The position numbers and the translations under genes were made by a program. Source: a virus (lineage: Duplodnaviria; Heunggongvirae; Uroviricota; Caudoviricetes). Taken from it: a stretch of DNA of 64,000 nt. The stretch is from positions 1 through 64,000 of the IMG/VR virus record IMGVR_UViG_3300050821_002969. The stretch is one strand, 5' to 3'. A model generated the notes under the pieces. That model saw nothing but the letters and a program-made list of their open reading frames with translations, was not told where the DNA came from and made no database searches. This document shows, in pieces, positions 44,559 to 51,982 of this stretch (positions within the stretch are counted from its first letter, which is position 1; each line of letters starts with the position of its first letter).

Positions 44559-44820
44559 TGGTTTATCTCTCTCCTGTGCAGATATGCACTATAACTCAGA
44601 TGTAAAGAGAGTAAGGTTGGTTGCATTATTTGTCAAGAAATTTTGGTGCCGCTAGCAAGATTTCCACTTGCACGCCATTGCTGGCACATGGGCCTAAACC
44701 ATGCATGTCTGGTAATTCCATCATAGCGGCACTGGTACCCATGGAGCGACTTGCACGCTCACGCCCGAAGGCAGCGGGGCTTAAATCCGCCGTGTATTCT
44801 ATTCCACCACATGGGCAAAA

Positions 44821-44909
44821 TGGTGAGGGCGGATCGAATCGAACGACCGAGACTGCAAAGAGTCGCTGGGTTACGGCCAGCTTGAGATTACCAACATCTC
44901 AACGCCCCC
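44821..44909 (-). tRNA. tRNA-Tyr(GUA), type II, CCA encoded
   Basis: Acceptor GGGGGCG/CGCCCTC. Anticodon stem GCTGG/CCAGC. Anticodon loop CCGTAAC (C33 is unusual). Long variable arm. T-arm GGTCG-TTCGATT-CGATC. Ends ACCA. Confidence 0.65.
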
Positions 44910-44911
44910 GG

Positions 44912-44995
44912 AGGAAGATGGAGCATCGAAGCCCTAACCCTTGCGGGTTACTCACGGGTTCAAACCGTGTCGCCGTCCACTACAGCAGCACCTTC
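44912..44995 (-). tRNA. tRNA-Ser(UGA)-like, type II, with an aberrant T-arm
   Basis: Acceptor GGAAGGT/ATCTTCC. Perfect anticodon arm CACGG-TTTGAAC-CCGTG. A 6-bp variable-arm hairpin. The T-arm region is only 15 nt and does not fold canonically. Confidence 0.4.
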
Positions 44996-44997
44996 CG

Positions 44998-45083
44998 GCG
45001 ATGGGAGCGAGGCTCGAACTCGCACGCCCCTTTCGGGTGCAACGGTTTAGCAAACCGTCCGTTTTACCATTCACGCATCCCAC
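44998..45083 (-). tRNA. tRNA-Ser(GCU), type II
   Basis: Acceptor GGTGGGA/TCCCATC. Anticodon arm ACGGT-TTGCTAA-ACCGT. Long variable arm. T-arm GCGAG-TTCGAGC-CTCGC. No encoded CCA. Confidence 0.7.
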
Positions 45084-45108
45084 CGTTAAATTGTCAAAGA
45101 CCTAAACC

Positions 45109-45193
45109 TTGGTAGGCCAGAACGGACTTGAACCGTTACGCCTTGCGGCAGCGCATTTTGAGTGCGCCGTGTCTGCCATTCCAACCACTGGCC
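45109..45193 (-). tRNA. tRNA-Leu(CAA), type II, CCA encoded
   Basis: Perfect acceptor AGGCCAG/CTGGCCT. Anticodon arm GCGCA-CTCAAAA-TGCGC. T-arm AACGG-TTCAAGT-CCGTT. Confidence 0.7.
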
Positions 45194-45554
45194 TAAATTT
45201 TACAGGGATAAATACGAGTGCAGCGCTAGGCTGCTACTGAGTCGCAATGAGAGCGATAGAGTCATTGGATTTTTGGGAGCGGTCGCCGGTAACGATCCGG
45301 CTTTGCGACTTATGAGGACGCCGTGGCACCTGTCCACTTCCCCGCCAAAATTATTAGAGCATGGGCGCTTAAGTTGTGTCAATAATTATTTGGGATTGTT
45401 CTAGCCATTCTTGGTAGGTAAGAAATTTTCGACCACTAGACCTCCACGCCCTTTTATACATGTAATAACGCCGCAAGGCTTCGCGTTCCTTGATAACTAC
45501 CTTACCTAACCTTGTGCGCCATTCTTGCTGGATTGGGCGTGCTCTCATAAAATA

Positions 45555-45633
45555 TGGTCAGCCCGGTTGGATTTGAACCAACGTGAACCCGCTCCCAGGG
45601 CGGGTGCCTGAAGCCAGACTAGGCTACGGGCTG
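45555..45633 (-). tRNA. tRNA-Pro(GGG), CCA encoded
   Basis: Acceptor CAGCCCG/CGGGCTG. D-stem GCCT/AGGC. Anticodon arm CCCGC-CCTGGGA-GCGGG. T-arm GTTGG-TTCAAAT-CCAAC. Confidence 0.7.
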
Positions 45634-45638
45634 AAATT

Positions 45639-45714
45639 TGGTGGCCGCTTCTGGTATCGCGCCAGATTTTCTTCTTCTTCAGAGAAGCACACTGACTATC
45701 AGTGTTAAACGGCC
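45639..45714 (-). tRNA. tRNA-Phe(GAA)-like with a non-canonical T-loop, CCA encoded
   Basis: Acceptor GGCCGTT/AGCGGCC. D-stem ACAC/GTGT. Anticodon arm CTTCT-CTGAAGA-AGAAG. T-stem TCTGG/CCAGA with loop CGCGATA (no T54-psi55-C56). Confidence 0.55.
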
Positions 45715-45807
45715 AATCTTGGGTGGACTTGTAAATATTTACGTAAACCTGCCACAATAAACCATGAACTTAAAATTGCAAACGATCCATATGGCAAGCG
45801 TCGAAAG

Positions 45808-46383
45808 TTGTACGAAGCCCGCTGCCAACAGTGTAAATCATGTTTTTATGCCCCGAAATGCAAACTAGATAAAAATCTAGCTAAATATTGTTCTTTGCCG
45901 TGTTTTCATGCTGCATCGCGCACGCGAATATCTAAACTGTGCGCAATATGCAACAAGCAAATCACAAGAACCCCTAAAGCGGCCTCGCGCTGCAAGAGCG
46001 GTTTATTCTTTTGTTCCCGTGAATGTAAGTCTGTAGGCCAACGGTTTGAAACCACGGCTACATCAGCCTGCCATCCAGCGCATTATAAAAACGGCACAAG
46101 CGCTTACGGTAGAATTGCGGTTCGTATTCACGGCAATTATTGCAACCGTTGCGGTTATAGCGAATATCCCGGCATACTACGCACTCACCATAAAGACAGA
46201 AATCGCGAGAACAATTTGCCATTAAATCTTGAGCGCCTATGCCCAAATTGTCACGAAGTCGAACACTTCTTGGCTAGCGATGGTGTTTACGCCAGCCATA
46301 AGCGCCATAATAAAAACTTGGTGGACCGTACCGGCTATGCTCCGGTCGCCTCTGGTTTGCAGGACCAGCGCTCTCCTGAATGA
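45808..46383 (+). CDS. HNH endonuclease (plus strand, inside the tRNA island)
   Basis: Contains HHKDRNRENNLPLNLERLCPNCHEVEH, the HNH core, plus several CxxC zinc-finger-like pairs. Confidence 0.65.
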   Translation: MYEARCQQCKSCFYAPKCKLDKNLAKYCSLPCFHAASRTRISKLCAICNKQITRTPKAASRCKSGLFFCSRECKSVGQRFETTATSACHPAHYKNGTSAYGRIAVRIHGNYCNRCGYSEYPGILRTHHKDRNRENNLPLNLERLCPNCHEVEHFLASDGVYASHKRHNKNLVDRTGYAPVASGLQDQRSPE

Positions 46384-46396
46384 GCTAACAGCCCAC

Positions 46397-46471
46397 TGGG
46401 GTGTACCGTGCGAGTCGAACGCACTAAAATGAGAGCCACAATCTCACGCCGCACCGTTTGGCTTGGTACAC
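46397..46471 (-). tRNA. tRNA-His(GUG), CCA encoded, no encoded G-1
   Basis: Acceptor GTGTACC/GGTACAC. Anticodon arm TGAGA-TTGTGGC-TCTCA. T-arm GTGCG-TTCGACT-CGCAC. The base at -1 is C and the discriminator is C. Confidence 0.65.
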
Positions 46472-46479
46472 GTAAACCT

Positions 46480-46551
46480 TGGAGCCGACTGTGCGTGTTG
46501 AGCGCACTCCGCAATGGGTACAAGCCGCTGCGCCCTCCCGAGGGAGTCGGC
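46480..46551 (-). other. Degenerate tRNA-like element (acceptor stem, T-arm and CCA present; no foldable anticodon arm)
   Basis: GCCGACT...AGTCGGC-T-CCA with T-arm GTGCG-CTCAACA-CGCAC. The internal 37 nt do not form D or anticodon arms. Confidence 0.3.
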
Positions 46552-46560
46552 CAAACTTTG

Positions 46561-46634
46561 TGGAGCCAAGACTGCGAATTGAACGCAGGCTTCATTCTTA
46601 CCAAGAATGCGTACTGCCACTATACGATCAAGGC
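46561..46634 (-). tRNA. tRNA-Thr(GGU) with two U-U mismatches in the acceptor stem, CCA encoded
   Basis: D-stem CGTA/TACG. Anticodon arm CATTC-TTGGTAA-GAATG. T-arm CTGCG-TTCAATT-CGCAG. Acceptor GCCTTGA/TCTTGGC with mismatches at 4-69 and 5-68. Confidence 0.5.
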
Positions 46635-46636
46635 CA

Positions 46637-46711
46637 TGGGGCTAGCGCGGAAAATTGCGTTCCGATTTGCTGGTTACGAATCAGCCGTATTTCTACTTAT
46701 ACGACGCTAGC
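46637..46711 (-). tRNA. tRNA-Thr(CGU) with a non-canonical T-loop, CCA encoded
   Basis: Acceptor GCTAGCG/CGCTAGC. D-stem CGTA/TACG. Anticodon loop TTCGTAA. T-stem CGGAA/TTCCG with loop CGCAATT. Confidence 0.55.
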
Positions 46712-46788
46712 AAAAATGAATTAGGCGTCTTTCGTGTCTAGCATTCCGACGAAACGGAACAGCTTTCCCTAGCCTAGACGCCTAAACT

Positions 46789-46863
46789 TGGAGTGCCGTG
46801 GGTGAATCGAACACCCGTGGTACGGGCTGCAACCGTACACCTAAGCCACTCGGTCAACGGCAC
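46789..46863 (-). tRNA. tRNA-Cys(GCA), CCA encoded
   Basis: Acceptor GTGCCGT/ACGGCAC. Anticodon arm TACGG-TTGCAGC-CCGTA. T-arm GGGTG-TTCGATT-CACCC. Confidence 0.7.
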
Positions 46864-46870
46864 ACTAAAA

Positions 46871-46944
46871 TGGAGCGGCCTACCGTAATCGAAACGGTGC
46901 CCCGACCATGGCAAGGTCATGCGCTACCACTACACCAAGGCCGC
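46871..46944 (-). tRNA. tRNA-Gly(GCC), CCA encoded
   Basis: Acceptor GCGGCCT/AGGCCGC. Anticodon arm TGACC-TTGCCAT-GGTCG. T-arm ACCGT-TTCGATT-ACGGT. Confidence 0.7.
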
Positions 46945-46946
46945 AC

Positions 46947-47021
46947 TGGAGCGGAGTACGAGAGTCAAACTCGTTAGTAGTTGGGTGGAAACCAACCGCC
47001 TTATCGTCCGGCCCACTCCGC
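46947..47021 (-). tRNA. tRNA-Gly(UCC), CCA encoded
   Basis: Acceptor GCGGAGT/ACTCCGC. Anticodon arm GTTGG-TTTCCAC-CCAAC. T-arm ACGAG-TTTGACT-CTCGT. Confidence 0.65.
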
Positions 47022-47483
47022 TCATTCACAGCAAACTCCGTTCTTGTTGGTTGCCGTGCATTCCAAACAAAATTCTACAGCATGTTTCACGCATGGGTAT
47101 TCTTTCCAGCCATGCCGCGCCATATAGTTATCCCAATGGCTAGCTACCCAGTAACGCGGGCGAGAAGTTGTACCGCAACGGTCATCCCAGCATTCCTTAC
47201 AGCGTGCAGAGCCAGAACCGAGCTTGGTTTCTGCGCCGCAGTCAATACAGAAAGTGGCACCAGTGCTGTGAGTCGAACACAGTTCGGAAGATTTGGAGGC
47301 TTCCCGCGCACCCTTTGCATCTTCACTGGCGAAAAATTGTTTCAATAACTTAAACATCTTTTTCCTTTCAAAGTGGCGGTGTGTACGGGTAACGATCCCG
47401 CTATTTCCTGTTAGACAGACAGGCGGCTCGCCATTTGCCTTACACACCCAAAATTTGTGGCCCCGAGTAGTTGAATCGAACAA
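47022..47483 (-). CDS. Cys-rich hypothetical protein (start uncertain; possibly the internal MFKLLKQ)
   Basis: ORF abutting tRNA-Gly with many CxxC pairs (CIDCG, CKECWDDRCG, CLEC). Confidence 0.3.
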   Translation of the reverse strand: MFDSTTRGHKFWVCKANGEPPVCLTGNSGIVTRTHRHFERKKMFKLLKQFFASEDAKGAREASKSSELCSTHSTGATFCIDCGAETKLGSGSARCKECWDDRCGTTSRPRYWVASHWDNYMARHGWKEYPCVKHAVEFCLECTATNKNGVCCE

Positions 47484-47531
47484 CTGTTAGCTGATCCAGA
47501 ATCAGCAGTCTTGCCACTAAACGAACTCGGA
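47458..47531 (-). tRNA. tRNA-Gln(CUG), U1-G72, CCA encoded
   Basis: Acceptor TCCGAGT/ACTCGGG. D-stem GTTT/AGAC. Anticodon arm GCTGA-TTCTGGA-TCAGC. T-arm AGTTG-TTCGATT-CAACT. Confidence 0.65.
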
Positions 47532-47532
47532 G

Positions 47533-47606
47533 TGGAAGGGAGTCTGAGAATCGGACTCAGTTCTGGTGATCCAAAGTCACCGGCATTGCCATTATGCGAA
47601 CTCCCC
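47533..47606 (-). tRNA. tRNA-Gln(UUG), CCA encoded
   Basis: Acceptor GGGGAGT/ACTCCCT. D-stem GCAT/ATGC. Anticodon arm GGTGA-CTTTGGA-TCACC. T-arm CTGAG-TCCGATT-CTCAG. Confidence 0.65.
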
Positions 47607-47797
47607 GCTAAACCTTCAACGGTATCGCACGAACGCATCTCGCGCAGATTACCGAACTTGAGTCAATATCCTTTTCCAACTTTCGCCGCGCTTCGCGAGC
47701 CTCTTCCACAAGGGCAAAGTGATCTTTGCCCATGCTGCAATAATCTGCCGTGCCCGGTAATACAATCGCGCCGAAAAGTTCGTGTCGCATGAATCCT

Positions 47798-47877
47798 TGG
47801 TGCCGCATGTCGGACTCGCACCGACTAGAATATTCTGTTTGAAAAACAGATCGCTCGACGACTTTGCGCTATGCGGC
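47798..47877 (-). tRNA. tRNA-Glu(UUC), 80 nt, T-loop TGCGAGT, CCA encoded
   Basis: Acceptor GCCGCAT/ATGCGGC. Anticodon arm TCTGT-TTTTCAA-ACAGA. 8-nt variable loop. T-arm GTCGG-TGCGAGT-CCGAC. Confidence 0.6.
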
Positions 47878-47879
47878 GT

Positions 47880-47959
47880 TGGTAGCATACTCGGGACTCG
47901 CACCCGATAGAATGTCTAGATTGAGAATCTAGCCGCTCGACTACTTTGCGCTGTATGCC
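47880..47959 (-). tRNA. tRNA-Glu(CUC), paralog of the previous tRNA, CCA encoded
   Basis: Acceptor GGCATAC/GTATGCT. Anticodon arm CTAGA-TTCTCAA-TCTAG. T-arm TCGGG-TGCGAGT-CCCGA. Confidence 0.6.
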
Positions 47960-47960
47960 A

Positions 47961-47996
47961 CAAAAACCAAATCCCCGACCTTGTTGCGGCTCGGGG
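47961..47996 (-). terminator. Hairpin plus U-rich tract immediately 5' of the tRNA island (terminator or leader-processing structure)
   Basis: On the minus strand CCCCGAGCCGCAACAAGGTCGGGG is followed by ATTTGGTTTTTG, ending 2 nt before tRNA-Glu(CUC). Confidence 0.4.
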
Positions 47997-48118
47997 AAGA
48001 TTGAACTACGTTTAATGTATTCCCCGATTATTTCGATGCACCTTCTTGCTGCCACGGTTGCGCGGCCGCTGGAAAACAATCGGTATGAAAAACATTGTTC
48101 ATTGGTTAATGAGTTAAT

Positions 48119-48147
48119 ACTAAAGAAAACTTAGGCGCGTGTCAAGC
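48119..48147 (-). promoter_or_regulatory. Sigma70-like promoter TTGACA-N17-TAGTAT on the minus strand
   Basis: The minus-strand reading GGCTTGACACGCGCCTAAGTTTTCTTTAGTATTAAC has a perfect -35, a 17-nt spacer and a 4/6 match at -10. It points into the hairpin and the tRNA island. Confidence 0.35.
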
Positions 48148-48188
48148 CGTGTAAACGCAGAGCACGGTAATCCAAGCTGCGGTTTTCA

Positions 48189-48653
48189 TCATTTCTGCTC
48201 CTTGGGTGGGGCCGTCTGTCTGGCAAGATTCAGCAATATCTGTATTCTTGCGCGGGTTAGGTTTGGTAACCATTCCTGATCTTTCCCTGAAAGCGCATCT
48301 ACGAGAATAGCTTGCACGCACTCTTCCACTGGTGGGGCCTCGGACTCCGCGTGTCGCTCTAATTTCTTGTGTAGCGCTTCCCGTGCTTCGCGGAGTTCCG
48401 CTTGCAACCCGTCACGTTCAACCATTACTGCTACCAGTTCGGCGTGATATTCCGCCCGCAACTGCTTCGTGGCTTCGACGGCGTGTGTAGCTAATAGTTT
48501 AGCTAGTTCACTAGCTTCTGCCTCATCAGCATTGCCGATTATTGGTCGCCCACAATTCCCGTAAGCACCCCGCACGATCTTCAATGCCATCGGATACCAG
48601 AACTGCTCGGGGAGCGATACGCCGTCTCCAGCGTCCTCAGCTTCTTGTGTCAT
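48189..48653 (-). CDS. hypothetical protein (GC-rich island)
   Basis: 154-aa ORF with charged, helical composition. Confidence 0.4.
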   Translation of the reverse strand: MTQEAEDAGDGVSLPEQFWYPMALKIVRGAYGNCGRPIIGNADEAEASELAKLLATHAVEATKQLRAEYHAELVAVMVERDGLQAELREAREALHKKLERHAESEAPPVEECVQAILVDALSGKDQEWLPNLTRARIQILLNLARQTAPPKEQK

Positions 48654-48658
48654 CGGCT

Positions 48659-48877
48659 TTATACTCGACTTTCTTTCAACTCGCGTTCGAGTTGTGGGTA
48701 TGCCTGCATCAAGCGTTCCCGCAAGCAGCGGAGTTTCTTCAAGAGTTCCGCGTCCGATTCGTTACCATCCATGAGCGTACAGAAAACGGAGTACCACACT
48801 TTCAGGACTTCAACCTTTCTAGGGTCTGGATTGTGCGTCATCGGGTCCGCTCCTACACACCCACTTTCATCTTTCAT
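48659..48877 (-). CDS. hypothetical protein with a duplicated SD-ATG start
   Basis: 72-aa ORF. The 17-mer AGGAGCGGACCCGATGA occurs at both Met1 and Met13. Confidence 0.35.
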   Translation of the reverse strand: MKDESGCVGADPMTHNPDPRKVEVLKVWYSVFCTLMDGNESDAELLKKLRCLRERLMQAYPQLERELKESRV

Positions 48878-49104
48878 CGGGTCCGCTCCTGTTCCGCTCG
48901 AATACAGTCACAAGTAAAGCCTTTATCAAGCCGTTTCTGGTGTGCCACGGCTTCTCCTTTTTGAAAGAAGCCACGTTCATCTGGCTGATGGTCTGGGTGC
49001 TCCCACGCTTGCCAGTTAACTCGTTCGCCTTGCGTTGGAGAGTAGCCATTGATCTTTCGTACCAGCCGCCAGCCTTTAGATACGAGATAGTCAGCGTCGT
49101 TCAT
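48874..49104 (-). CDS. hypothetical protein
   Basis: 76-aa ORF joined to the next gene by an ATGA stop-start overlap. Confidence 0.35.
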   Translation of the reverse strand: MNDADYLVSKGWRLVRKINGYSPTQGERVNWQAWEHPDHQPDERGFFQKGEAVAHQKRLDKGFTCDCIRAEQERTR

Positions 49105-49417
49105 GGCTTAGCTCCTGCTCTAGCATCCGCTCAACTTCTGCGGCGATCTCGGCACACGGCACGCGAAAGCTGGCCTTATTCTTTGCACACGTCCAAGTCG
49201 CCTCCGCTACAAGCTCGGCCATACGCTCAAGCAGCGACTCCACTGCAAAAGGATTGCCCGAAACATAGCGTGGGGCGGCTACCAGTTCCGCTGCCTTCTG
49301 AAATGGTCGGTCAGCCATGCAAGTCCTCCCTAATTGGCAGCGAGCCACGTGGTTTATTCTGGATCGTAAAACGAATCGAGCCAACCAATCATTTTCCGTG
49401 GCGTAATGTTTGGACAC
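49091..49417 (-). CDS. hypothetical protein
   Basis: 108-aa ORF. Confidence 0.35.
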   Translation of the reverse strand: MSKHYATENDWLARFVLRSRINHVARCQLGRTCMADRPFQKAAELVAAPRYVSGNPFAVESLLERMAELVAEATWTCAKNKASFRVPCAEIAAEVERMLEQELSHERR

Positions 49418-49563
49418 TGAAGTCCGGCACTGTGTTCGAGTTTGGCGTTCTTACAGTTAAAGCATCTTGGTTCCGTTCTATTTTTCTTCCGTGGCGTGGC
49501 GTCCATTGTGACAGCGACCACGGTGTTAATTTGGACTGTCCCGGTTGTCATTTCCACAATCAC
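49354..49563 (-). CDS. small Cys-containing protein
   Basis: 69 aa with CFNCKN...LQCPN. A GGAGGAG Shine-Dalgarno lies upstream. Confidence 0.35.
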   Translation of the reverse strand: MIVEMTTGTVQINTVVAVTMDATPRKKNRTEPRCFNCKNAKLEHSAGLQCPNITPRKMIGWLDSFYDPE

Positions 49564-49626
49564 TCCTCCGTTTCTTGAGACGCCAGAATCCGCCCCGCTT
49601 CATCTCTCCAAGGCTGCCGTGCGTTA

Positions 49627-49652
49627 GTTGTGGACTCACCCCGGTCACCGAA
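49627..49652. repeat. 26-nt direct repeat, copy 1 (GTTGTGGACTCACCCCGGTCACCGAA)
   Basis: Identical to 50414-50439. The 16-nt core recurs at 50802-50817. All copies sit at start or stop junctions of minus-strand genes in the GC-rich island. Confidence 0.7.
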
Positions 49653-50412
49653 TTCCGTTTGGCGAACAATTCCAAAGACGTGTTAATCCGAGCATTTCCA
49701 GCTCGCTGATGCTGTGGAGCCTGATGCGATGGGCTTCAAGTGCGCCCTCAACCGAGCCGTATTCCCCATGAGCGATCGACAGCGCCGCCTTCATTGCATC
49801 TTTTACACGGGTTAGGGATTCGCGCTGTTTGTCCTGCTCTCGGTACTCTTTGCGGATTCGGTTGATGTGCTCGTATCTCGTATGGTTGTCACGGCGACAG
49901 GCAACCGCATGGATCAGGTTTCTTTGCTGCTCTGCTGTCGTCATGCGGATTTGCGGGACATTGCGCGTGACCATACAATCCCGCCCTTCGCTGTATTCGA
50001 GGACGCCCCATCCTTGTGGCCTCTCGGATTCTCCAATCAATCCAGACGGCGCGGCAATCCAACTCAGATCAGCCATTGGAGGGGCGGTCCATTTCTTGTC
50101 GCCCAGAAAATCACCGCGCGAAGTCTTGACTTCCACGATGATGGTCATCATGCACGCCATTGCCGCGACTTCTGCCTCCCAGACTTCACGCTCCGCACGC
50201 TTGTTCCATTTCGGGGCACGGCGAATTAACTTGAGTTCCTGCAACTCAGTATTCGACGGGCAGACCACGGAGGCAATATCCGCAATCCATCCGAAATGCA
50301 CACAAACCTCTGTTTCGACAGGCTTACAGCCGCGTTCATCAAGCCAGAAGCATGTCGCCGCCGTGATCTGCTTTGTAATCTCCGTCTTATTCTGATCGTC
50401 AAAAAGGCTCAT
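49645..50412 (-). CDS. PD-(D/E)xK nuclease-fold protein (MmcB-like)
   Basis: 255 aa with ...VHFGWIADIASV...TIIVEVKTSRGDF..., a D-x(n)-E-V-K arrangement. Its start is directly preceded by the 26-nt repeat and its stop lies inside the other repeat copy. Confidence 0.45.
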   Translation of the reverse strand: MSLFDDQNKTEITKQITAATCFWLDERGCKPVETEVCVHFGWIADIASVVCPSNTELQELKLIRRAPKWNKRAEREVWEAEVAAMACMMTIIVEVKTSRGDFLGDKKWTAPPMADLSWIAAPSGLIGESERPQGWGVLEYSEGRDCMVTRNVPQIRMTTAEQQRNLIHAVACRRDNHTRYEHINRIRKEYREQDKQRESLTRVKDAMKAALSIAHGEYGSVEGALEAHRIRLHSISELEMLGLTRLWNCSPNGIR

Positions 50413-50413
50413 G

Positions 50414-50439
50414 GTTGTGGACTCACCCCGGTCACCGAA
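50414..50439. repeat. 26-nt direct repeat, copy 2
   Basis: Exact copy. The ATG of the PD-(D/E)xK-like gene (50410-50412) abuts it. Confidence 0.7.
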
Positions 50440-50815
50440 CTTTTACCTTTCGTTGCTGAATATGCATTCGTAGCAGCGTCAGGGTCCGTTCCCGCGAACG
50501 AGAAAGCCGCCACGAACACCAGCCTTTATGCCCACTCGAACGTCCGCAAGGGCATTGTAAGTCTTGCACTTTTAACAAGCGTTTCCGCAGTTTCATTACA
50601 GTGTTTATGGCCAAGTGAGACAACTTTGCAGTTTCCCGAATACTAAGGCCAGCTCTCAAAAATTCCAGCGCCGGACGAAGACGAGACTTCTTTGCCATGC
50701 CTTCAAATAGGACGGCTTGGATAGTTTCATCCTGAGCAAGCGCCTCCTCGTATCGCCGTCCACGAAGGATTGATAGCCCCTCTTGTGCGTAGCGCTGTGC
50801 AAGTTGTGGACTCAC
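50432..50815 (-). CDS. HTH plus Cys-cluster putative regulator
   Basis: 127 aa with LSIRETAKLSHLAINTV (helix-turn-helix) and CPCGRSSGHKGWC. The start region overlaps the third partial repeat copy. Confidence 0.4.
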   Translation of the reverse strand: MSPQLAQRYAQEGLSILRGRRYEEALAQDETIQAVLFEGMAKKSRLRPALEFLRAGLSIRETAKLSHLAINTVMKLRKRLLKVQDLQCPCGRSSGHKGWCSWRLSRSRERTLTLLRMHIQQRKVKVR

Positions 50816-50817
50816 CC
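50802..50817. repeat. Partial third copy of the repeat (GTTGTGGACTCACCCC)
   Basis: The 16-nt core overlaps the GTG start region of the 50432-50815 gene. Confidence 0.6.
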
Positions 50818-50882
50818 CTCAGCCCTCCGCCGTTTCCCCGCCTGAATGTTTTGATTGTAACGCATTGGAAAAAGATTCAGAA

Positions 50883-50958
50883 ATGGTGGGCGGCCCGAGA
50901 GTTAAACTCGGATTTGCAGATTCGGAATCTGCTAGGTTTTTCCGTTACCTCAGCCACC
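50883..50958 (-). tRNA. tRNA-Arg(CCG), CCA encoded
   Basis: Acceptor GGGTGGC/GCCGCCC. D-stem AGGT/ACCT. Anticodon arm GCAGA-TTCCGAA-TCTGC. T-arm CCGAG-TTTAACT-CTCGG. Confidence 0.65.
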
Positions 50959-50959
50959 C

Positions 50960-51036
50960 ATGGTGCCAGCGACAGGACTCAAACCTGCATTCAACTCTTT
51001 AGGAAAGAGTGCCGTTGTTCAATTACGGTACGCTGG
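50960..51036 (-). tRNA. tRNA-Arg(CCU), CCA encoded
   Basis: Acceptor GCCAGCG/CGCTGGC. D-stem CCGT/ACGG. Anticodon arm ACTCT-TTCCTAA-AGAGT. T-arm GCAGG-TTTGAGT-CCTGT. Confidence 0.65.
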
Positions 51037-51332
51037 CAAAATATGGCCACAAGTTAAGTTGAAAACTTTCGCCAGTTACTTTGTCCTTCTGTGCTGGGCC
51101 ACTCGAAACGATTAAGCTTAATCTATCCCAGCCTTCTGCCCGCGCTTTCCTCGGGATTAGGGGCGTTTCCTTCCAGACTTTTTACCAACTTCGGAGATTC
51201 CCTCAGAACCATTGCTGGAATGCATCTGAATTCCACTCCGCGACTCTAGATCGACTTTTGGGTTAGCAAGCTAGTCGTCCAACTTGCGGCGGCAACTTTT
51301 TCGTGGCCAAAGTAAATATAGCACGAAAGAAA

Positions 51333-51411
51333 TGGTGCGGATAGGAAGATTTGAACTCCCGGCCTCTTCGTTCGTAGCGAAGCGCTCTAAATCCAACTGA
51401 GCTATACCCGC
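51333..51411 (-). tRNA. tRNA-Arg(ACG), CCA encoded
   Basis: Acceptor GCGGGTA/TATCCGC. D-stem GCTC/GAGC. Anticodon arm CTTCG-CTACGAA-CGAAG. T-arm GGGAG-TTCAAAT-CTTCC. Confidence 0.7.
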
Positions 51412-51416
51412 AAACT

Positions 51417-51493
51417 TGGTAGCGCACTGAGGATTCAAACCCCAATCACCGAAGGTAGAAGCTTCGTGCATTGTTCAGTTATGCTAGTGCGCC
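51417..51493 (-). tRNA. tRNA-Arg(UCU), CCA encoded
   Basis: Acceptor GGCGCAC/GTGCGCT. D-stem GCAT/ATGC. Anticodon arm CGAAG-CTTCTAC-CTTCG. T-arm TGGGG-TTTGAAT-CCTCA. Confidence 0.65.
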
Positions 51494-51578
51494 AAAATTG
51501 GTCGGGGCCAAGGGATTCCCACCCTTATCGGCTCGCTTAAAAGGCGAGGGTACTCAGTGTTGTACTAGACCCCGAAAC

Positions 51579-51655
51579 TGGTGGCTACGGCGGGGTTTTC
51601 GCCCGCATTATCTTCTTTAAGAGAGAAGAACGATTCGCTTTTCCGTCACGTAGCC
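51579..51655 (-). tRNA. tRNA-Lys(CUU) with a non-canonical T-loop CGAAAAC, CCA encoded
   Basis: Acceptor GGCTACG/CGTAGCC. Anticodon arm CTTCT-CTCTTAA-AGAAG. T-stem GCGGG/CCCGC with loop CGAAAAC. Confidence 0.55.
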
Positions 51656-51661
51656 GTAAAA

Positions 51662-51739
51662 TGGTGCGGGATATTGGAATTGAACCAATGACCTCGGCTT
51701 TATCAGAACCGCGCTCTAAGCCGACTGAGCTAATCCCGC
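51662..51739 (-). tRNA. tRNA-Ile(GAU), CCA encoded
   Basis: Acceptor GCGGGAT/ATCCCGC. D-stem GCTC/GAGC. Anticodon arm CGGTT-CTGATAA-AGCCG. T-arm ATTGG-TTCAATT-CCAAT. Confidence 0.7.
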
Positions 51740-51741
51740 GT

Positions 51742-51817
51742 TGGTACTCCGACTAGGATTTGCACCTAGAACTTCCGTCTTGTAAGGGCGGCACTCTGCT
51801 AGTTGAGTTATCGGAGC
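51742..51817 (-). tRNA. tRNA-Val(UAC), T-loop TGCAAAT, CCA encoded
   Basis: Acceptor GCTCCGA/TCGGAGT. D-stem ACTC/GAGT. Anticodon arm CCGCC-CTTACAA-GACGG (one C-A mismatch). T-arm CTAGG-TGCAAAT-CCTAG. Confidence 0.6.
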
Positions 51818-51829
51818 ATTTTAAAATTT

Positions 51830-51906
51830 TGGTGGTTCCGCTTGGATTTGAACCAAGGACCGTCATCTTATGAGAATGCCGCTCTAAACCGCTGAGCTAC
51901 GGAACC
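51830..51906 (-). tRNA. tRNA-Met(CAU) (elongator or Ile2-type), CCA encoded
   Basis: Acceptor GGTTCCG/CGGAACC. D-stem GCTC/GAGC. Anticodon loop CTCATAA. T-arm CTTGG-TTCAAAT-CCAAG. Confidence 0.65.
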
Positions 51907-51908
51907 GG

Positions 51909-51982
51909 CTGGGGAAACTGGATTCGAACCAGCAGCCTCTTGATTAACAGTCAAGCGAACGAACCTTTCGTTCTATTCCCCA
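51909..51982 (-). tRNA. tRNA-Asn(GUU), no encoded CCA
   Basis: Acceptor TGGGGAA/TTCCCCA. D-stem GAAC/GTTC. Anticodon arm CTTGA-CTGTTAA-TCAAG. T-arm GCTGG-TTCGAAT-CCAGT. Confidence 0.65.

What the first reader, a model, noticed from the sequence alone, without database searches (positions are those of the whole stretch)
44821..51982. Very large phage tRNA repertoire (at least 25 genes in three islands), many with non-canonical T-loops
I can fold 25 minus-strand tRNAs by hand: Tyr, Ser x2, Leu, Pro, Phe, His, Thr x2, Cys, Gly x2, Gln x2, Glu x2, Arg x4, Lys, Ile, Val, Met, Asn. Most have genomically encoded CCA and are separated by only 1-5 nt. A striking subset replaces the universal T54-psi55-C56 loop start. 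Phe has CGCGATA, Thr(CGU) has CGCAATT and Lys has CGAAAAC. Both Glu tRNAs have TGCGAGT and Val has TGCAAAT. Gln(UUG) has TCCGATT, and Gly(UCC), Arg(CCG), Arg(CCU) and Arg(UCU) have TTTxxxT. Ser(UGA) has a truncated T-arm and Thr(GGU) has two U-U acceptor mismatches. tRNA-His lacks an encoded G-1, with C at -1 and C73. Four distinct Arg isoacceptors suggest compensation for host codon-usage mismatch or for tRNA-targeting host defences. The altered T-loops could reflect escape from host tRNA nucleases or modification-dependent restriction, or they could mark decoy tRNAs.
Basis: seen in the sequence. Interest (0 to 1): 0.75.

Follow-up and report, generated by a model that had tools for sequence, protein, structure and literature searches.

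The report
Phage tRNA array with rewired elbows
An uncultured phage carries 32 tRNA genes, and 18 of them lack the near-universal T-loop and D-loop bases but carry matching changes in the partner loop, so they are most likely working tRNAs with an alternative elbow.

Summary
There are 32 minus-strand tRNA genes at 44644-51982, plus one doubtful Trp-like gene. They cover 19 amino acids, or 20 with the Trp-like gene. Eighteen of the 32 do not start the T-loop with T54-T55-C56.

- U56 goes with A19: four tRNAs, one of them (Arg-CCG) register-dependent (G-U wobble in the Rfam alignment).
- G55-C56 goes with A18-G19: six tRNAs. Glu-UUC has C18.
- G55-G56 goes with A18-C19: two tRNAs.
- A54 goes with T58: three tRNAs.
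- Lys-CUU (G55-A56) has A18 but no partner for A56.

A DNA pattern taken from the odd Arg tRNAs found 29 metagenome tRNA arrays and 7 cyanobacterial arrays. Across 399 tRNAs, 19:56 is Watson-Crick in 392. The permutation mean was 315 and the maximum was 331. The 54:58 pair covaries without exception.

These are therefore structurally compensated, probably functional tRNAs, not decayed genes or decoys. Cultured phages show the same swaps only rarely: T5 1 of 23, Moby 0 of 20, Tunturi_5 3 of 32.

Why this phage has so many is unresolved. G55 tRNAs cluster in this array and in one unrelated array, which hints at lineage-specific selection. No paper describing this covariation was found.

The parts
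44644..44730 (-). tRNA-Leu(UAG), class II. T-loop TGGAAAT (G55 G56). D-loop GAATTACCAGA, with A18 C19 where E. coli tRNA-Leu, as I recall it, has GG.
   Evidence: ARAGORN; parser; cloverleaf is the minimum-energy fold. No Rfam hit.
44733..44816 (-). tRNA-Leu(UAA). T-loop TGCAAGT (G55 C56). D-loop AATAGAAT (A18 G19).
   Evidence: ARAGORN; Rfam 39.4 bits.
44821..44909 (-). tRNA-Tyr(GUA), bacterial long-arm type, canonical TTCGATT with GG in the D-loop.
   Evidence: ARAGORN.
44910..44996 (-). tRNA-Ser(UGA), weak candidate. TTCGATG loop closed by a C53-C61 mismatch; the T-stem has 3-4 pairs; T73; ends in CC abutting the next tRNA.
   Evidence: ARAGORN only at -ps80; Rfam tRNA-Sec 20.4 bits, below threshold; cloverleaf-like minimum-energy fold, z = -2.5.
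44997..45084 (-). tRNA-Ser(GCU), canonical. Ends GCC followed by G1 of the next tRNA.
   Evidence: ARAGORN; Rfam 52.1 bits.
45110..45194 (-). tRNA-Leu(CAA), canonical.
   Evidence: ARAGORN; Rfam 42.5 bits.
45274..45346 (-). Second CAU tRNA (Met, or Ile2 if lysidine-modified). T-loop ATCGTTA (A54...T58). Two mismatches at the base of the acceptor stem and a U-U in the anticodon stem. Weak candidate.
   Evidence: ARAGORN -ps90; cloverleaf minimum-energy fold but z = +0.3. No Rfam hit.
45555..45633 (-). tRNA-Pro(UGG), canonical, with C1-G72 and A73.
   Evidence: ARAGORN; Rfam 51.5 bits.
45639..45714 (-). tRNA-Phe(GAA). T-loop CGCGATA (C54 G55 C56). D-loop TGATAGTCA (A18 G19).
   Evidence: Rfam 43 bits; parser score 58; fold z = -4.3. 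Missed by default ARAGORN.
46319..46394 (-). tRNA-Ala(UGC). T-loop AGCATAG (A54 G55 C56 ... T58). D-loop ATTCAGGA (A18 G19). G3-U70 and A73 are present.
   Evidence: Rfam 42.7 bits; parser; ARAGORN -ps90; cloverleaf minimum-energy fold.
46397..46471 (-). tRNA-His(GUG), canonical elbow, C73, with C rather than G at -1.
   Evidence: ARAGORN.
46480..46551 (-). tRNA-Thr(UGU), weak candidate. T-loop CTCAACA (C54). Short D-arm containing GGG.
   Evidence: ARAGORN -ps90; cloverleaf minimum-energy fold. No Rfam hit.
46561..46634 (-). tRNA-Thr(GGU), canonical elbow, with two U-U mismatches in the acceptor stem.
   Evidence: ARAGORN; Rfam 47.8 bits.
46637..46711 (-). tRNA-Thr(CGU). T-loop CGCAATT (C54 G55 C56). 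D-loop AAGTAGAA (A18 G19). A53-U61 closing pair.
   Evidence: Parser score 57; cloverleaf minimum-energy fold, z = -2.4. Missed by ARAGORN and Rfam.
46789..46863 (-). tRNA-Cys(GCA), canonical, U73.
   Evidence: ARAGORN; Rfam 48.8 bits.
46871..46944 (-). tRNA-Gly(GCC), canonical, U73.
   Evidence: ARAGORN; Rfam 52.8 bits.
46947..47021 (-). tRNA-Gly(UCC). T-loop TTTGACT (U56). D-loop GACGATA (G18 A19).
   Evidence: ARAGORN; Rfam 43.6 bits.
47255..47330 (-). Doubtful tRNA-Trp(CCA)-like element. Seven-pair acceptor stem, G73 plus CCA, canonical TTCGACT, but a poor D-arm. It overlaps the start of the Cys-rich ORF 47022-47357.
   Evidence: ARAGORN only at -ps90; no Rfam hit; fold z = -0.8.
47374..47448 (-). 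tRNA-Asp(GUC). T-loop ATCGTTA (A54...T58 swap). GG kept in the D-loop. G73.
   Evidence: ARAGORN; Rfam 42.2 bits.
47458..47531 (-). tRNA-Gln(CUG), canonical, with U1-G72 and G73.
   Evidence: ARAGORN; Rfam 46.8 bits.
47533..47606 (-). tRNA-Gln(UUG). T-loop TCCGATT (C55). GG kept in the D-loop.
   Evidence: ARAGORN; Rfam 51.5 bits.
47798..47877 (-). tRNA-Glu(UUC). T-loop TGCGAGT (G55 C56). D-loop AAGTCGTCG (C18 G19). Eight-nucleotide variable region.
   Evidence: ARAGORN; fold z = -2.7. No Rfam hit.
47880..47959 (-). tRNA-Glu(CUC), paralogue of the previous gene. T-loop TGCGAGT. D-loop AAGTAGTCG (A18 G19).
   Evidence: Parser score 55; cloverleaf minimum-energy fold; ARAGORN gives a partial hit at -ps80.
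50884..50959 (-). tRNA-Arg(CCG). T-loop TTTAACT (U56). D-loop AACGGAAAA, read either as G18 A19 or as G19-U56 wobble.
   Evidence: ARAGORN; Rfam 30.6 bits; fold z = -4.1.
50961..51037 (-). tRNA-Arg(CCU). T-loop TTTGAGT (U56). D-loop AATTGAACA (G18 A19 A20).
   Evidence: ARAGORN; Rfam 55.1 bits, and the Rfam alignment puts GA in the GG columns.
51038..51332 (-). 295-nt spacer with no tRNA and no ORF inside the array. Function unknown.
   Evidence: No Rfam hit at E up to 10; fold z = -0.66; no homologue in 76 fetched loci.
51333..51411 (-). tRNA-Arg(ACG), canonical.
   Evidence: ARAGORN; Rfam 63.4 bits.
51417..51493 (-). tRNA-Arg(UCU). T-loop TTTGAAT (U56). D-loop AACTGAACA (G18 A19 A20). Member of a widespread array-borne Arg lineage.
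   Evidence: ARAGORN; Rfam 48.9 bits; the derived pattern found 29 metagenome and 8 genome loci.
51499..51574 (-). tRNA-Lys(UUU). T-loop TGGGAAT (G55 G56). D-loop AACACTGA (A18 C19).
   Evidence: ARAGORN; Rfam 47.6 bits, and the Rfam alignment puts AC in the GG columns.
51579..51655 (-). tRNA-Lys(CUU). T-loop CGAAAAC (C54 G55 A56). D-loop AAAAGCGAA (A18 G19). The 19:56 pair is not compensated.
   Evidence: Rfam 46.7 bits; parser score 60. Missed by ARAGORN.
51662..51739 (-). tRNA-Ile(GAU), canonical.
   Evidence: ARAGORN; Rfam 66.8 bits.
51742..51817 (-). tRNA-Val(UAC). T-loop TGCAAAT (G55 C56). D-loop AACTAGCA (A18 G19).
   Evidence: ARAGORN; Rfam 55.5 bits, and the Rfam alignment puts AG in the GG columns.
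51830..51906 (-). tRNA-Met(CAU), elongator type, canonical.
   Evidence: ARAGORN; Rfam 61.7 bits.
51907..51982 (-). tRNA-Asn(GUU), canonical. Ends GCC abutting G1 of tRNA-Met.
   Evidence: ARAGORN; Rfam 48.8 bits.
52008..52037 (-). Sigma-70-like promoter match (TTGTTA, 18 nt, TACAAT) just upstream of the first tRNA, Asn.
   Evidence: Consensus scan. The number of such matches in the region is no higher than in shuffles, so this is only a candidate.
45808..46383 (+). Opposite-strand ORF of 191 aa inside the array, with an HNH-like motif (HHKD...N...CPNCH).
   Evidence: ORF list; Pfam HNH_3 only at E = 0.08, so it is suggestive only.

Best explanation
**What it is.** This is a T5-style phage tRNA gene array of 32 co-oriented genes. 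It can read essentially every sense codon of a phage whose codon usage is flat.

**What is unusual.** Eighteen of the 32 tRNAs have an elbow built from different bases than the near-universal G18-G19 and T54-psi55-C56. [quoted passage not shown]
- The outer Watson-Crick pair 19:56 appears as G-C, as A-U (Arg-UCU, Arg-CCU, Gly-UCC, and Arg-CCG only in one of two registers) and as C-G (Lys-UUU, Leu-UAG).
- The 18:55 contact appears either as G with U or as A with G (Val, Phe, Ala, Thr-CGU, Leu-UAA, Glu-CUC, both Lys, Leu-UAG).
- The intraloop 54:58 pair appears as U-A, as A-U (Asp, CAU-2, Ala) or as C-A (Phe, Thr-CGU, Lys-CUU, Thr-UGU).
- Purine 57 is always kept, and the G53-C61 closing pair is kept in 17 of the 18.

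**Shown here.** The cloverleaves, the covariation, and its generality across 36 other arrays.

**Inferred from established tRNA structure.** The L-shape survives, with its flat outer base pair. RNase P, the CCA-adding enzyme, EF-Tu and the ribosome are thought to read that surface mainly by shape and stacking, so they should still accept these tRNAs. The tRNAs should then be charged and used in translation.

**Also inferred.** G55, A54 or C54, and A18 cannot receive psi55 (TruB), m5U54 (TrmA) or Gm18 (TrmH). These tRNAs are therefore independent of those host enzymes, and they present a different base pattern to any factor that reads elbow bases.

**Why so many in one genome.** Undecided. I lean towards lineage-specific selection acting on top of compensatory drift.
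For: **These are real tRNA genes.**
- The parser that ignores T-loop sequence finds 26 clean cloverleaves here and none in the rest of the window on either strand.
- Twelve of the 18 odd tRNAs exceed the Rfam gathering score.
- For most of the 20 odd or weak candidates that I folded, the cloverleaf is the unconstrained minimum-energy structure.

**The D-loop changes match the T-loop changes.**
- The Rfam model does not model the 18:55 or 19:56 contacts. It still places AG (Val), GA (Arg-CCU, Arg-UCU) and AC (Lys-UUU) in its GG columns, opposite T-loops TGC, TTT and TGG.
- In 399 tRNAs from the window and 29 metagenome arrays, I assigned positions 18-19 without reference to the T-loop. The counts against 55-56 were: GG/TC 313, GG/CC 10, GA/TT 40 (never elsewhere) and AG/GC 21 (never with TC).
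- 19:56 is Watson-Crick in 392 of 399. Ten thousand permutations gave a mean of 315 and a maximum of 331.
- G-C/T-G and G-T/T-A cases also occur.
- The 54:58 pair is T-A 376, A-T 11, G-G 7, C-A 3 and A-G 2, with no other combinations. Position 57 is a purine in 399 of 399.

**Bacterial identity elements are kept (my recollection of bacterial identity rules applied to the table).** Ala has G3-U70 and A73. Pro has C1-G72. Gly has G1-C72, C2-G71, G3-C70 and U73. The odd Arg tRNAs keep A20. The discriminator bases of Asp, Asn, Cys, Leu and Tyr are the expected ones.

**The same swaps occur in tRNAs that function elsewhere.**
- Cyanobacterial long arrays carry the same odd Arg-ACG, Glu-CUC and Met genes.
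- In the Anabaena array of that family, 23 of 26 tRNAs are aminoacylated in vivo and found on polysomes (PMC8421152).
- Cultured phages show the same swaps: T5 tRNA-Ile (GA with TTT) and Tunturi_5 tRNA-Arg (GT with TTA).

**The sequence is not an assembly artefact.** An independent ENA assembly is 100% identical over 20.4 kb.
Against: - There are no expression, processing or charging data for this phage, and the host is unknown.
- Six odd tRNAs get no Rfam hit: both Glu, Leu-UAG, Thr-CGU, Thr-UGU and CAU-2. tRNAscan-SE was not available.
- Lys-CUU (G19 opposite A56) is not compensated. Arg-CCG is compensated only in one of two possible registers.
- Ser-UGA, CAU-2, Thr-UGU and the Trp-like element have weak arms and could be dead genes.
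- His lacks G-1.
- The choice of positions 18 and 19 in D-loops without GG rests on a heuristic and on the Rfam alignment, not on a structure.
- Compensated pairs persist for a long time even without selection, so conservation of the odd Arg lineage does not prove any advantage.
- No close relative of this phage with a tRNA array was found, so orthologues could not be compared.
Confidence: 0.75

Rival explanations
1. Adaptive insulation. The elbow bases were changed under selection so that the phage tRNAs are not recognised by something that reads the canonical GG and T-psi-C bases. That could be a host immune or toxin tRNase, a host modification or surveillance enzyme, or a phage nuclease that destroys host tRNAs and must spare the phage's own.
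For: - G55 tRNAs are strongly clustered by genome: 10 of 29 in this array and 10 of 21 in the unrelated array L051, against 7 of 349 in the other 28 arrays. The binomial probabilities are 1e-5 and 4e-7.
- The window's odd tRNAs have canonical tRNAs as their best matches elsewhere, at 64-74% identity. They are no more similar to one another than other pairs are (0.61 against 0.58). This points to several independent switches in one genome.
- Phage tRNAs are known to escape immune tRNases through substitutions (PMC10264068; PMC12409363).
- For AriB, base-specific D-loop contacts are inferred, as are contacts outside the anticodon arm.
- A near-complete decoding set fits a scenario in which host tRNAs are depleted.
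Against: - Fourteen of the 32 tRNAs keep a canonical elbow, so the array as a whole is not insulated.
- The phage-defence tRNases described in the papers I read cut the anticodon arm or the CCA tail. None of those papers mentions T-loop or elbow specificity.
- No nuclease or tRNA-repair gene was recognised among the window proteins I scanned.
- Clustering by genome could also come from a lineage-specific mutation bias or from loss of a constraint.
Confidence: 0.25
2. Neutral compensatory drift. Array-borne tRNAs act briefly, exist in many copies and are mobile. Identity constraints at the elbow, which in cells come largely from modification enzymes, are therefore relaxed. Only the geometry is selected. 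Double substitutions then fix occasionally and are locked in, because reversal needs two mutations.
For: - The same swaps occur sporadically in many unrelated arrays, at 0-20% per array, and in cultured phages: T5 1 of 23, Tunturi_5 3 of 32, Moby 0 of 20.
- All four Watson-Crick combinations occur at 19:56, as expected if only pairing matters.
- There are partially compensated intermediates: Lys-CUU, Arg-CCG, and Gln-UUG with C55.
Against: - Drift does not by itself explain 56% odd tRNAs in this array or 75% in L051, when most arrays have none beyond the bait gene.
- It does not explain the repeated choice of the same A18 with G55 solution in ten different isoacceptors of one genome.
Confidence: 0.4
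3. Pseudogenes, decoys or tRNA-like regulatory RNAs. The odd-T-loop genes are not used in translation. They are either decaying copies or sponges for tRNA-binding proteins.
For: - Six odd tRNAs and Ser-UGA fail the Rfam tRNA model.
- Default ARAGORN misses eight of the 32.
- Ser-UGA, CAU-2, Thr-UGU and the Trp-like element have weak stems.
- T5 carries tRNA-like stable RNAs of unknown function in its tRNA region.
- In Anabaena, 3 of the 26 array genes are pseudogenes.
Against: - Decay does not produce matched changes in two loops about 37 nt apart. Covariation at 19:56, 18:55 and 54:58 is near perfect.
- Acceptor, anticodon and T-stems are intact. U33 (except Ala, C33), a purine at 37, the discriminator bases and CCA are kept.
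- The Ala G3-U70 pair is retained in a tRNA with one of the strangest T-loops.
- Odd tRNAs are the only phage-encoded readers for Val, Phe, Ala, Glu, Lys and Asp codons.
Confidence: 0.08

Closest known systems
tRNA gene region of coliphage T5 (Demerecviridae)
   Same: - Dozens of co-oriented tRNA genes in several clusters, separated by small ORFs.
- HNH endonuclease genes and non-coding stretches are interspersed; T5 annotates 'stable RNAs with unknown functions'.
- T5 tRNA-Ile(GAU) has the same A19-U56 swap: D-loop AGCGATCTA with T-loop TTTAAAT.
   Different: - T5 has 22 of 23 canonical elbows, against 14 of 32 here.
- There is no sequence relationship. The best cultured terminase match is only 24% identical, to a Tunturiibacter phage.
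- No initiator tRNA is recognisable here.
[quoted passage not shown] 2021, PMC8421152)
   Same: - Dense arrays spread by horizontal transfer, linked to homing endonucleases. In the cyanobacterial arrays fetched here most genes encode CCA.
- Cyanobacterial arrays fetched here carry a homologue of the window's odd Arg (GA with TTT), plus Glu-CUC and Met with A18 and G55.
- Tested Anabaena array tRNAs are charged and found on polysomes.
   Different: - They sit on a chromosome or plasmid, not in a phage.
- In the cyanobacterial arrays fetched here only one to four odd tRNAs occur per array of up to 32.
- The paper's main text has no occurrence of 'T-loop', 'D-loop', 'G19' or 'tertiary'.
Phage tRNAs that escape immune tRNases (van den Berg et al. 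2023, PMC10264068; T5 tRNA-Lys against PARIS AriB, PMC12409363)
   Same: Phage-encoded isoacceptors differ from cellular tRNAs at positions that proteins read. A large repertoire is seen as insurance against tRNA depletion.
   Different: The documented escape substitutions lie in the anticodon stem-loop. Here the changes lie in the elbow and are pairwise compensated. No nuclease is known to be involved.
Metazoan mitochondrial tRNAs with non-canonical elbows
   Same: They have lost G18-G19 and T54-psi55-C56 and use alternative tertiary contacts (PMC4810234; PMC7912444).
   Different: Mitochondrial tRNAs often shrink or lose the D- or T-arm, and their partner molecules have co-evolved. These phage tRNAs keep full-size arms, seven-nucleotide T-loops, G53-C61 and R57. 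They must work with an ordinary bacterial ribosome and RNase P.
Eukaryotic initiator tRNA (A54-A58)
   Same: It is a natural, functional T-loop in which U54 is replaced and the 54:58 pair is remodelled (PMC7912444).
   Different: It is one special-purpose tRNA with A-A. Here A54-U58, C54-A58 and, in other arrays, G54-G58 occur in ordinary elongator tRNAs.

Membership tests
tRNA (Rfam RF00005, canonical cloverleaf) | Cloverleaf with a 7-pair acceptor stem, a 5-pair anticodon stem with a 7-nt loop (U33, purine 37), and a 5-pair T-stem with a 7-nt loop | tested here: met
   - 26 of 32 pass a strict parser that ignores T-loop sequence. There are no hits elsewhere in the 64 kb on either strand.
- The other six are found by ARAGORN.
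- The cloverleaf is the minimum-energy fold for most of the 20 folded.
tRNA (Rfam RF00005, canonical cloverleaf) | Covariance-model score at or above the curated gathering score of 29 bits | tested here: inconclusive
   - 23 of 32 genes score 30.6-66.8 bits, including 12 of the 18 odd ones.
- Nine get no hit: Leu-UAG, Tyr, His, both Glu, Thr-CGU, Thr-UGU, CAU-2 and Ser-UGA.
- Two of those nine (Tyr, His) have canonical elbows, so a miss is not specific to odd T-loops.
tRNA (Rfam RF00005, canonical cloverleaf) | Near-universal elbow nucleotides G18, G19, U54, U55, C56 and A58 | tested here: not met
   Eighteen of 32 lack T54-T55-C56, and 14 of those also lack G18 or G19. This departure is the finding itself.
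tRNA (Rfam RF00005, canonical cloverleaf) | Tertiary pairs 19:56 (Watson-Crick) and 54:58, with a purine at 57, that form the elbow | tested here: met
   - By covariation, 19:56 is Watson-Crick in 392 of 399 array tRNAs. The permutation maximum was 331.
- 54:58 covaries without exception, and position 57 is a purine in 399 of 399.
- In the window, Lys-CUU fails, and Arg-CCG is Watson-Crick only in one of two possible registers.
tRNA (Rfam RF00005, canonical cloverleaf) | Expressed, end-processed and aminoacylated | not testable with these tools
   This needs tRNA sequencing or acid-gel northern blots from infected cells. The host is unknown.
tRNA array unit / L-array / phage tRNA gene cluster (Tran et al. 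2016, PMC4758250; Santamaria-Gomez et al. 2021) | At least 20 tRNA genes at a density of at least 2 per kb | tested here: met
   Thirty-two genes in 7.34 kb (44644-51982) gives 4.4 per kb. All are on one strand, and many are 0-9 nt apart. The definition comes from the abstract of PMC4758250.
tRNA array unit / L-array / phage tRNA gene cluster | Neighbouring homing endonuclease gene | tested here: inconclusive
   - The ORF 45808-46383 (+) inside the array has an HNH-like motif, but Pfam HNH_3 gives only E = 0.08.
- A clear HNH_3 protein lies 3.5 kb away at 40571-41131.
Anticodon-arm escape variants of phage tRNAs (van den Berg 2023) | Substitutions relative to the host isoacceptor at the cleavage or recognition site of an anticodon nuclease | not testable with these tools
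   Neither the host nor its tRNAs are known. No comparison was possible.
Mitochondrial-type truncated tRNAs | Missing or strongly shortened D-arm or T-arm | tested here: not met
   All 18 odd tRNAs have a 5-pair T-stem and a 7-nt T-loop, and most also a 3-4-pair D-stem with a 7-11-nt D-loop; Thr-UGU has a short D-arm. Only Ser-UGA has a defective T-arm.
tRNA pseudogenes | Uncompensated substitutions that break stems or tertiary pairs | tested here: not met
   This is not met for the set, because the changes are compensated. It remains possible for Ser-UGA, CAU-2, Thr-UGU, the Trp-like element and perhaps Lys-CUU.

The most novel reading that the evidence does not exclude
Rewiring of the tRNA elbow is a previously unrecognised axis of phage-host conflict. 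On this reading, phages and mobile tRNA arrays replace G18-G19 and T54-psi55-C56 with isosteric alternatives (A18 with G55, A19-U56, C19-G56, A54-U58). Their tRNAs still fit the ribosome and RNase P, but they are invisible to a factor that reads elbow bases. That factor could be an immune tRNase, a toxin, a modification-dependent surveillance pathway, or the phage's own nuclease directed against host tRNAs. The clustering of ten A18-G55 tRNAs in this genome and ten in an unrelated array would then mark such a pressure.
Probability: 0.2. Interest if true: 0.85.

Novelty: new variant of a known kind. Interest (0 to 1): 0.62.

Why it matters
**For tRNA biology.** G18, G19, T54, psi55 and C56 are taught as near-invariant in all cytoplasmic tRNAs. 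This array and the 36 related arrays fetched here show natural, full-size bacterial-type tRNAs in which these bases vary, while the three elbow pairs covary. That is a ready-made mutational series. It can show which partners read the elbow by shape (ribosome, RNase P, CCA-adding enzyme, T-box leaders) and which read it by base (TruB, TrmA, TrmH, tRNases).

**For annotation.** Default ARAGORN missed 8 of 32 genes and Rfam missed 9, so repertoires of this kind are systematically undercounted.

**For phage biology.** It gives a concrete, testable idea beyond anticodon-loop escape. It also supplies candidate orthogonal tRNA scaffolds that cannot receive the psi55, m5U54 or Gm18 modifications.

Tried and rejected
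**Close relatives for comparing orthologues.**
- Protein-anchored searches of IMG/VR used five window proteins.
- Only L007 and L008 are syntenic relatives, with terminase 79-84% identical. Their fetched stretches do not reach the tRNA region.
- The other 30 loci share single genes and have no real tRNAs; the one call is a tRNA-Pyl in L005.
- Homologues of the flanking 137-aa protein lie on short contigs, or on contigs with no tRNA-sized gaps between called genes (L034 scanned: no tRNAs).
- L033 is the same phage, 100% identical.
- A pattern from the odd Glu tRNAs found nothing in IMG/VR.
- Nucleotide search of cultured phages found only isolated matches the size of a single tRNA. The Gifsy-1 tRNA-Arg hit turned out to be canonical.

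**Mis-registration of the T-loops.** Rejected. The stems are perfect five-pair helices, no TTC is available in any alternative register, and the Rfam alignment agrees.

**The 295-nt spacer as an RNase P-like or other known RNA.** Rejected. There is no Rfam hit even when it is searched alone, no excess folding stability and no homologue.

**A formal covariance-model alignment for pair counting.** Abandoned. MAFFT misaligned the 5' halves of the seed sequences. I used fixed-offset numbering, a rule for positions 18-19 that ignores the T-loop, and the Rfam alignments instead.

**tRNA-processing, repair or nuclease genes in the window.** None was recognised among the roughly 35 proteins scanned.

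**Literature.** Searches for A19-U56, C19-G56, or for phage tRNA T-loops and elbows found no description of this covariation. The library lacks most subscription journals, including the classic T5 tRNA sequencing papers.

Full report

ARAGORN at default settings finds 24 tRNA genes in the window. All are on the minus strand between 44644 and 51982. Rfam's tRNA model gives 23 hits at or above its 29-bit gathering score in the same stretch. Three of these are genes ARAGORN missed: Phe 45639-45714, Ala 46319-46394 and Lys-CUU 51579-51655.

Both tools expect a canonical T-loop. I therefore wrote a cloverleaf parser that scores only stems, U33, purine 37 and U8, and ignores T-loop sequence. At score 52 or more it returns 26 cloverleaves on the minus strand of this region. 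It returns none in the remaining 56 kb on either strand, and none on the plus strand of the region.

Relaxed ARAGORN adds Ser-UGA, a second CAU tRNA, Thr-UGU and a doubtful Trp-like element. The inventory is 32 genes plus the Trp-like element:
- Leu x3, Ser x2, Thr x3, Arg x4
- Gly x2, Gln x2, Glu x2, Lys x2, CAU x2
- one each of Tyr, Pro, Phe, Ala, His, Cys, Asp, Ile, Val and Asn

Seven were missed, two of them just outside the given coordinates. An independent ENA assembly is identical over 20.4 kb that include the whole array, so this is not an assembly artefact.

**2. The odd T-loops**

| Start of T-loop (54-56) | tRNAs |
|---|---|
| TGC | Val, Leu-UAA, Glu-UUC, Glu-CUC |
| CGC | Phe, Thr-CGU |
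| AGC | Ala |
| TGG | Lys-UUU, Leu-UAG |
| CGA | Lys-CUU |
| TTT | Arg-UCU, Arg-CCU, Arg-CCG, Gly-UCC |
| TCC | Gln-UUG |
| ATC | Asp, CAU-2 |
| CTC | Thr-UGU |

That is 18 of 32. The T-stems are perfect or near-perfect five-pair helices, and 17 of the 18 end in G53-C61. No alternative register offers TTC. The Rfam alignments use the same register.

The other details also hold:
- Thr-GGU has two U-U mismatches.
- His has C at -1 and C73. By comparison, 11 of the 18 His tRNAs examined (17 in other arrays) encode G at -1.
- Ser-UGA has a C53-C61 mismatch and only 3-4 T-stem pairs.
- CCA is encoded in 29 of the 32. Asn, Ser-GCU and Ser-UGA end in CC directly abutting G1 of the next gene.

**3.

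In canonical tRNA the elbow is held by three contacts: G19-C56 (Watson-Crick), G18 with psi55, and the U54-A58 reverse-Hoogsteen pair. R57 is stacked between them (PMC4810234 and PMC7912444). In this array the partners change together.

| T-loop change | tRNAs | D-loop | Inferred contacts |
|---|---|---|---|
| U56 | Arg-UCU, Arg-CCU, Arg-CCG, Gly-UCC | GA where GG is expected (AACTGAACA, AATTGAACA, AACGGAAAA, GACGATA) | A19-U56 |
| G55-C56 | Val, Thr-CGU, Phe, Ala, Leu-UAA, Glu-CUC | AG (for example AACTAGCA, AAGTAGAA, ATTCAGGA) | A18 with G55; G19-C56 kept |
| G55-C56 | Glu-UUC | CG | C18 with G55 |
| G55-G56 | Lys-UUU, Leu-UAG | AC (AACACTGA; GAATTACCAGA, against GAAUUGGUAGA in E. coli tRNA-Leu as I recall it) | A18 with G55; C19-G56 |
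| A54 | Asp, CAU-2, Ala | not affected | T58 replaces A58 (A54-U58) |

The Rfam model knows nothing of these tertiary pairs. It still places AG, GA and AC in its GG columns for Val, Arg-CCU, Arg-UCU and Lys-UUU. Only Lys-CUU (G19 opposite A56) is left uncompensated.

**4. Is this general? Related sequences**

No close relative with a tRNA array could be found through proteins. I therefore took the loop sequences shared by the two diverged paralogues Arg-UCU and Arg-CCU: TAAYTGAACAA, 29 unspecified bases, then GGTTTGARTCC. This pattern matched 29 metagenome contigs from lakes, ocean, rumen, soil and sediment. Twenty-eight of them are tRNA arrays of 2-28 ARAGORN-detected genes (the remaining contig holds the bait tRNA alone).

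The same pattern matched 8 genomes. Seven are filamentous cyanobacteria carrying the known long tRNA arrays.

From the window plus the 29 metagenome arrays I collected 407 tRNAs: 394 from ARAGORN and 13 more from my parser. I numbered positions 14-21 by fixed offsets and chose 18-19 by a rule that never looks at the T-loop. This worked for 399 of them. The counts of 18-19 against 55-56 were:

| 18-19 / 55-56 | Count |
|---|---|
| GG / TC | 313 |
| GG / CC | 10 |
| GA / TT | 40, and never with any other T-loop |
| AG / GC | 21, and never with TC |

There are also G-C/T-G, G-T/T-A and A-C/G-G cases. Position 19 is Watson-Crick to 56 in 392 of 399. Ten thousand permutations gave a mean of 315 and a maximum of 331.

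The 54:58 pair is T-A 376, A-T 11, G-G 7, C-A 3 and A-G 2, with no other combinations. Position 57 is a purine in all 399.

The cyanobacterial arrays repeat the pattern: Arg-ACG has GA with TTT, and Glu-CUC and Met have AG with TGC. Cultured phages show it rarely:
- T5: 1 of 23. tRNA-Ile has AGCGATCTA with TTTAAAT.
- Moby: 0 of 20.
- Tunturi_5: 3 of 32, including Arg-CCG with G18-T19 opposite T55-A56.

**5. What it is and how it most likely works**

The context is a phage with portal, large terminase and primase-helicase. It has no cultured relative; the best terminase match is 24% identical. The layout is that of the T5 tRNA region: clusters of co-oriented tRNAs, small ORFs, an HNH-like ORF and non-coding stretches.

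The anticodon set can read every sense codon, given the usual bacterial wobble rules as I recall them. Trp is the exception if the Trp-like gene is not real, and no initiator tRNA is recognisable. The phage uses codons evenly: GC3 is 0.51, AGA plus AGG make up 31% of Arg codons, AUA 22% of Ile codons and CUA 21% of Leu codons. A repertoire that supplies all codon families is consistent with this.

The covariation shows that the D-loop and T-loop still dock. It follows, by inference, that the L-shape and its flat outer pair survive. The ribosome, RNase P and the CCA-adding enzyme are thought to read that surface mainly by stacking and shape.

Bacterial identity elements, as I recall the bacterial identity rules, are present:
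- Ala has G3-U70 and A73.
- Pro has C1-G72.
- Gly has its first three acceptor pairs and U73.
- The odd Arg tRNAs keep A20.
- The discriminator bases are the expected ones for most isoacceptors.

For most of the 20 odd or weak candidates, the cloverleaf is the unconstrained minimum-energy fold.

In the Anabaena member of the cyanobacterial array family, 23 of 26 array tRNAs are charged in vivo and found on polysomes (PMC8421152). I did not verify that the Anabaena Arg gene itself has the odd elbow.

I conclude, with about 0.75 confidence, that most of these are working tRNAs with an alternative, compensated elbow. One chemical consequence is inferred: G55, A54 or C54, and A18 cannot become psi55, m5U54 or Gm18. 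These tRNAs therefore do not depend on TruB, TrmA or TrmH, and they look different to any factor that reads those bases.

**6. Why so many here?**

This is unresolved. Two observations argue for lineage-specific pressure:
- G55 tRNAs are concentrated in this array (10 of 29 parsed) and in the unrelated 4.9-kb array L051 (10 of 21). The other 28 arrays have 7 of 349. The binomial probabilities are 1e-5 and 4e-7.
- The window's odd tRNAs are not paralogues of one another. Their mean identity is 0.61, against 0.58 for other pairs. Their best matches elsewhere are canonical tRNAs. Several isoacceptors therefore switched independently.

Other observations argue against a simple insulation story:
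- Fourteen tRNAs remain canonical.
- The phage-defence tRNases in the papers I read cut the anticodon arm or the CCA tail. One caveat is that base-specific D-loop contacts are inferred for AriB.
- No relevant enzyme was recognised in the window.
- Compensated pairs persist without selection.

I give adaptive insulation about 0.25 and neutral compensatory drift about 0.4 as the main driver. The pseudogene or decoy reading gets about 0.08 for the set. Ser-UGA, CAU-2, Thr-UGU, the Trp-like element and perhaps Lys-CUU may individually be defective.

**7. Comparison with what is known, and novelty**

Phage tRNA arrays and bacterial long arrays are known (PMC6409571, PMC4758250, PMC8421152). This array meets the array definition, with 32 genes at 4.4 per kb. 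Single elbow swaps exist in sequenced phages, such as T5 tRNA-Ile.

My searches did not find any description of three things: the systematic covariation of 18:55, 19:56 and 54:58 in phage and array tRNAs; arrays where most tRNAs are of this kind; or C19-G56 and A18-G55 elbows. The search library omits most subscription journals, so older notes on individual T5 tRNAs may exist.

I class this as a new variant of a known kind. The practical corollary is that standard tRNA finders undercount such repertoires: 8 of 32 were missed by ARAGORN and 9 of 32 by Rfam.

**8. Verdict**

The repertoire and the odd loops are real, the decoy or pseudogene reading is disfavoured, and nuclease escape is untested.
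- Interest is 0.62. The array itself is ordinary. The compensated elbow rewiring is surprising for tRNA specialists and directly testable.

Noticed in passing
window 51038-51332 (-): A 295-nt stretch with no tRNA and no ORF lies between Arg-CCU and Arg-ACG. It has no Rfam match even when searched alone, folds no better than shuffles (z = -0.66), and has no homologue in the other fetched loci. Its position recalls the T5 'stable RNAs with unknown functions' that lie next to tRNA genes.
   Followed up: partly
window 49627-49642, 50414-50429, 50803-50818 (-): The 16-nt motif GGGGTGAGTCCACAAC occurs three times exactly, against 0.04 expected. In two copies it is extended to about 25 nt (CGGTGACCGGGGTGAGTCCACAAC). 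All three copies lie between the tRNA clusters, each just upstream of, or (50803-50818) overlapping, a small ORF start. It may be a shared translation-initiation or regulatory element.
   Followed up: partly
window 45808-46383 (+): This is the only sizeable opposite-strand ORF inside the array (191 aa). It has an HHKD...N...CPNCH motif typical of HNH endonucleases, but Pfam HNH_3 reaches only E = 0.08. A clear HNH_3 protein sits at 40571-41131. Homing endonucleases accompany tRNA arrays in T5, and per PMC8421152 in T4 and cyanobacteria.
   Followed up: partly
window 47255-47330 (-) and ORF 47022-47357 (-): A tRNA-Trp(CCA)-like cloverleaf has a perfect acceptor stem, G73-CCA and a canonical T-loop, but a poor D-arm. 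It overlaps the first ~30 codons of a Cys-rich 111-aa ORF. Either the ORF start is wrong, or the tRNA-like element is embedded in the mRNA. Trp is otherwise the only amino acid without a tRNA in the array.
   Followed up: partly
window 46397-46471 (-): tRNA-His has C73 but C at -1, so the G-1 that bacterial HisRS normally needs is not encoded. Eleven of the 18 His tRNAs examined (17 from the comparison arrays plus the window's) have G at -1. How this tRNA would be charged is unexplained.
   Followed up: partly
window 51907/51906, 44997/44996, 44910/44909 (-): Three tRNAs (Asn, Ser-GCU, Ser-UGA) end in CC with the next tRNA's G1 immediately following. A76 is therefore not encoded, and the junction leaves no spacer for processing.
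   Followed up: no
L051 (SDBT01076302.1), 2654-4785: This metagenome array has 21 tRNAs packed with 0-1 nt between most neighbouring genes. Fifteen of its 20 non-bait tRNAs have odd T-loops. Ten have TGC with A18 in the D-loop, across ten different amino-acid identities.
   Followed up: partly
L068-L070 and L072-L075 (cyanobacterial genomes); L039, L047, L058 (metagenome): The long tRNA arrays of filamentous cyanobacteria carry conserved odd-elbow members: Arg-ACG with GA and TTT in all seven, Glu-CUC with AG and TGC in five, and Met-CAU with AG and TGC in three. L071 (Candidatus Cybelea) has a single tRNA called Val-GAC with the same Arg-type D-loop and T-loop.
   Followed up: partly
L052, L057, L059, L061: tRNAs called His(GUG) carry the Arg-type D-loop (AACTGAACA or AATTGAACA) and the TTTGAAT T-loop, and have T at -1. 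They may be cases of anticodon switching from the odd Arg lineage.
   Followed up: no
L041 8751-9142 (-): ARAGORN reports a tmRNA-like gene (tag peptide GNVEEVSSDAGLKMAA) at the end of a 19-tRNA metagenome array.
   Followed up: no
window 46712-46792 (-): An ~80-nt spacer between Thr-CGU and Cys contains a long hairpin (GGCGTCTAGGC...AGACGCC). It is not a tRNA and has no homologue in the other loci.
   Followed up: no
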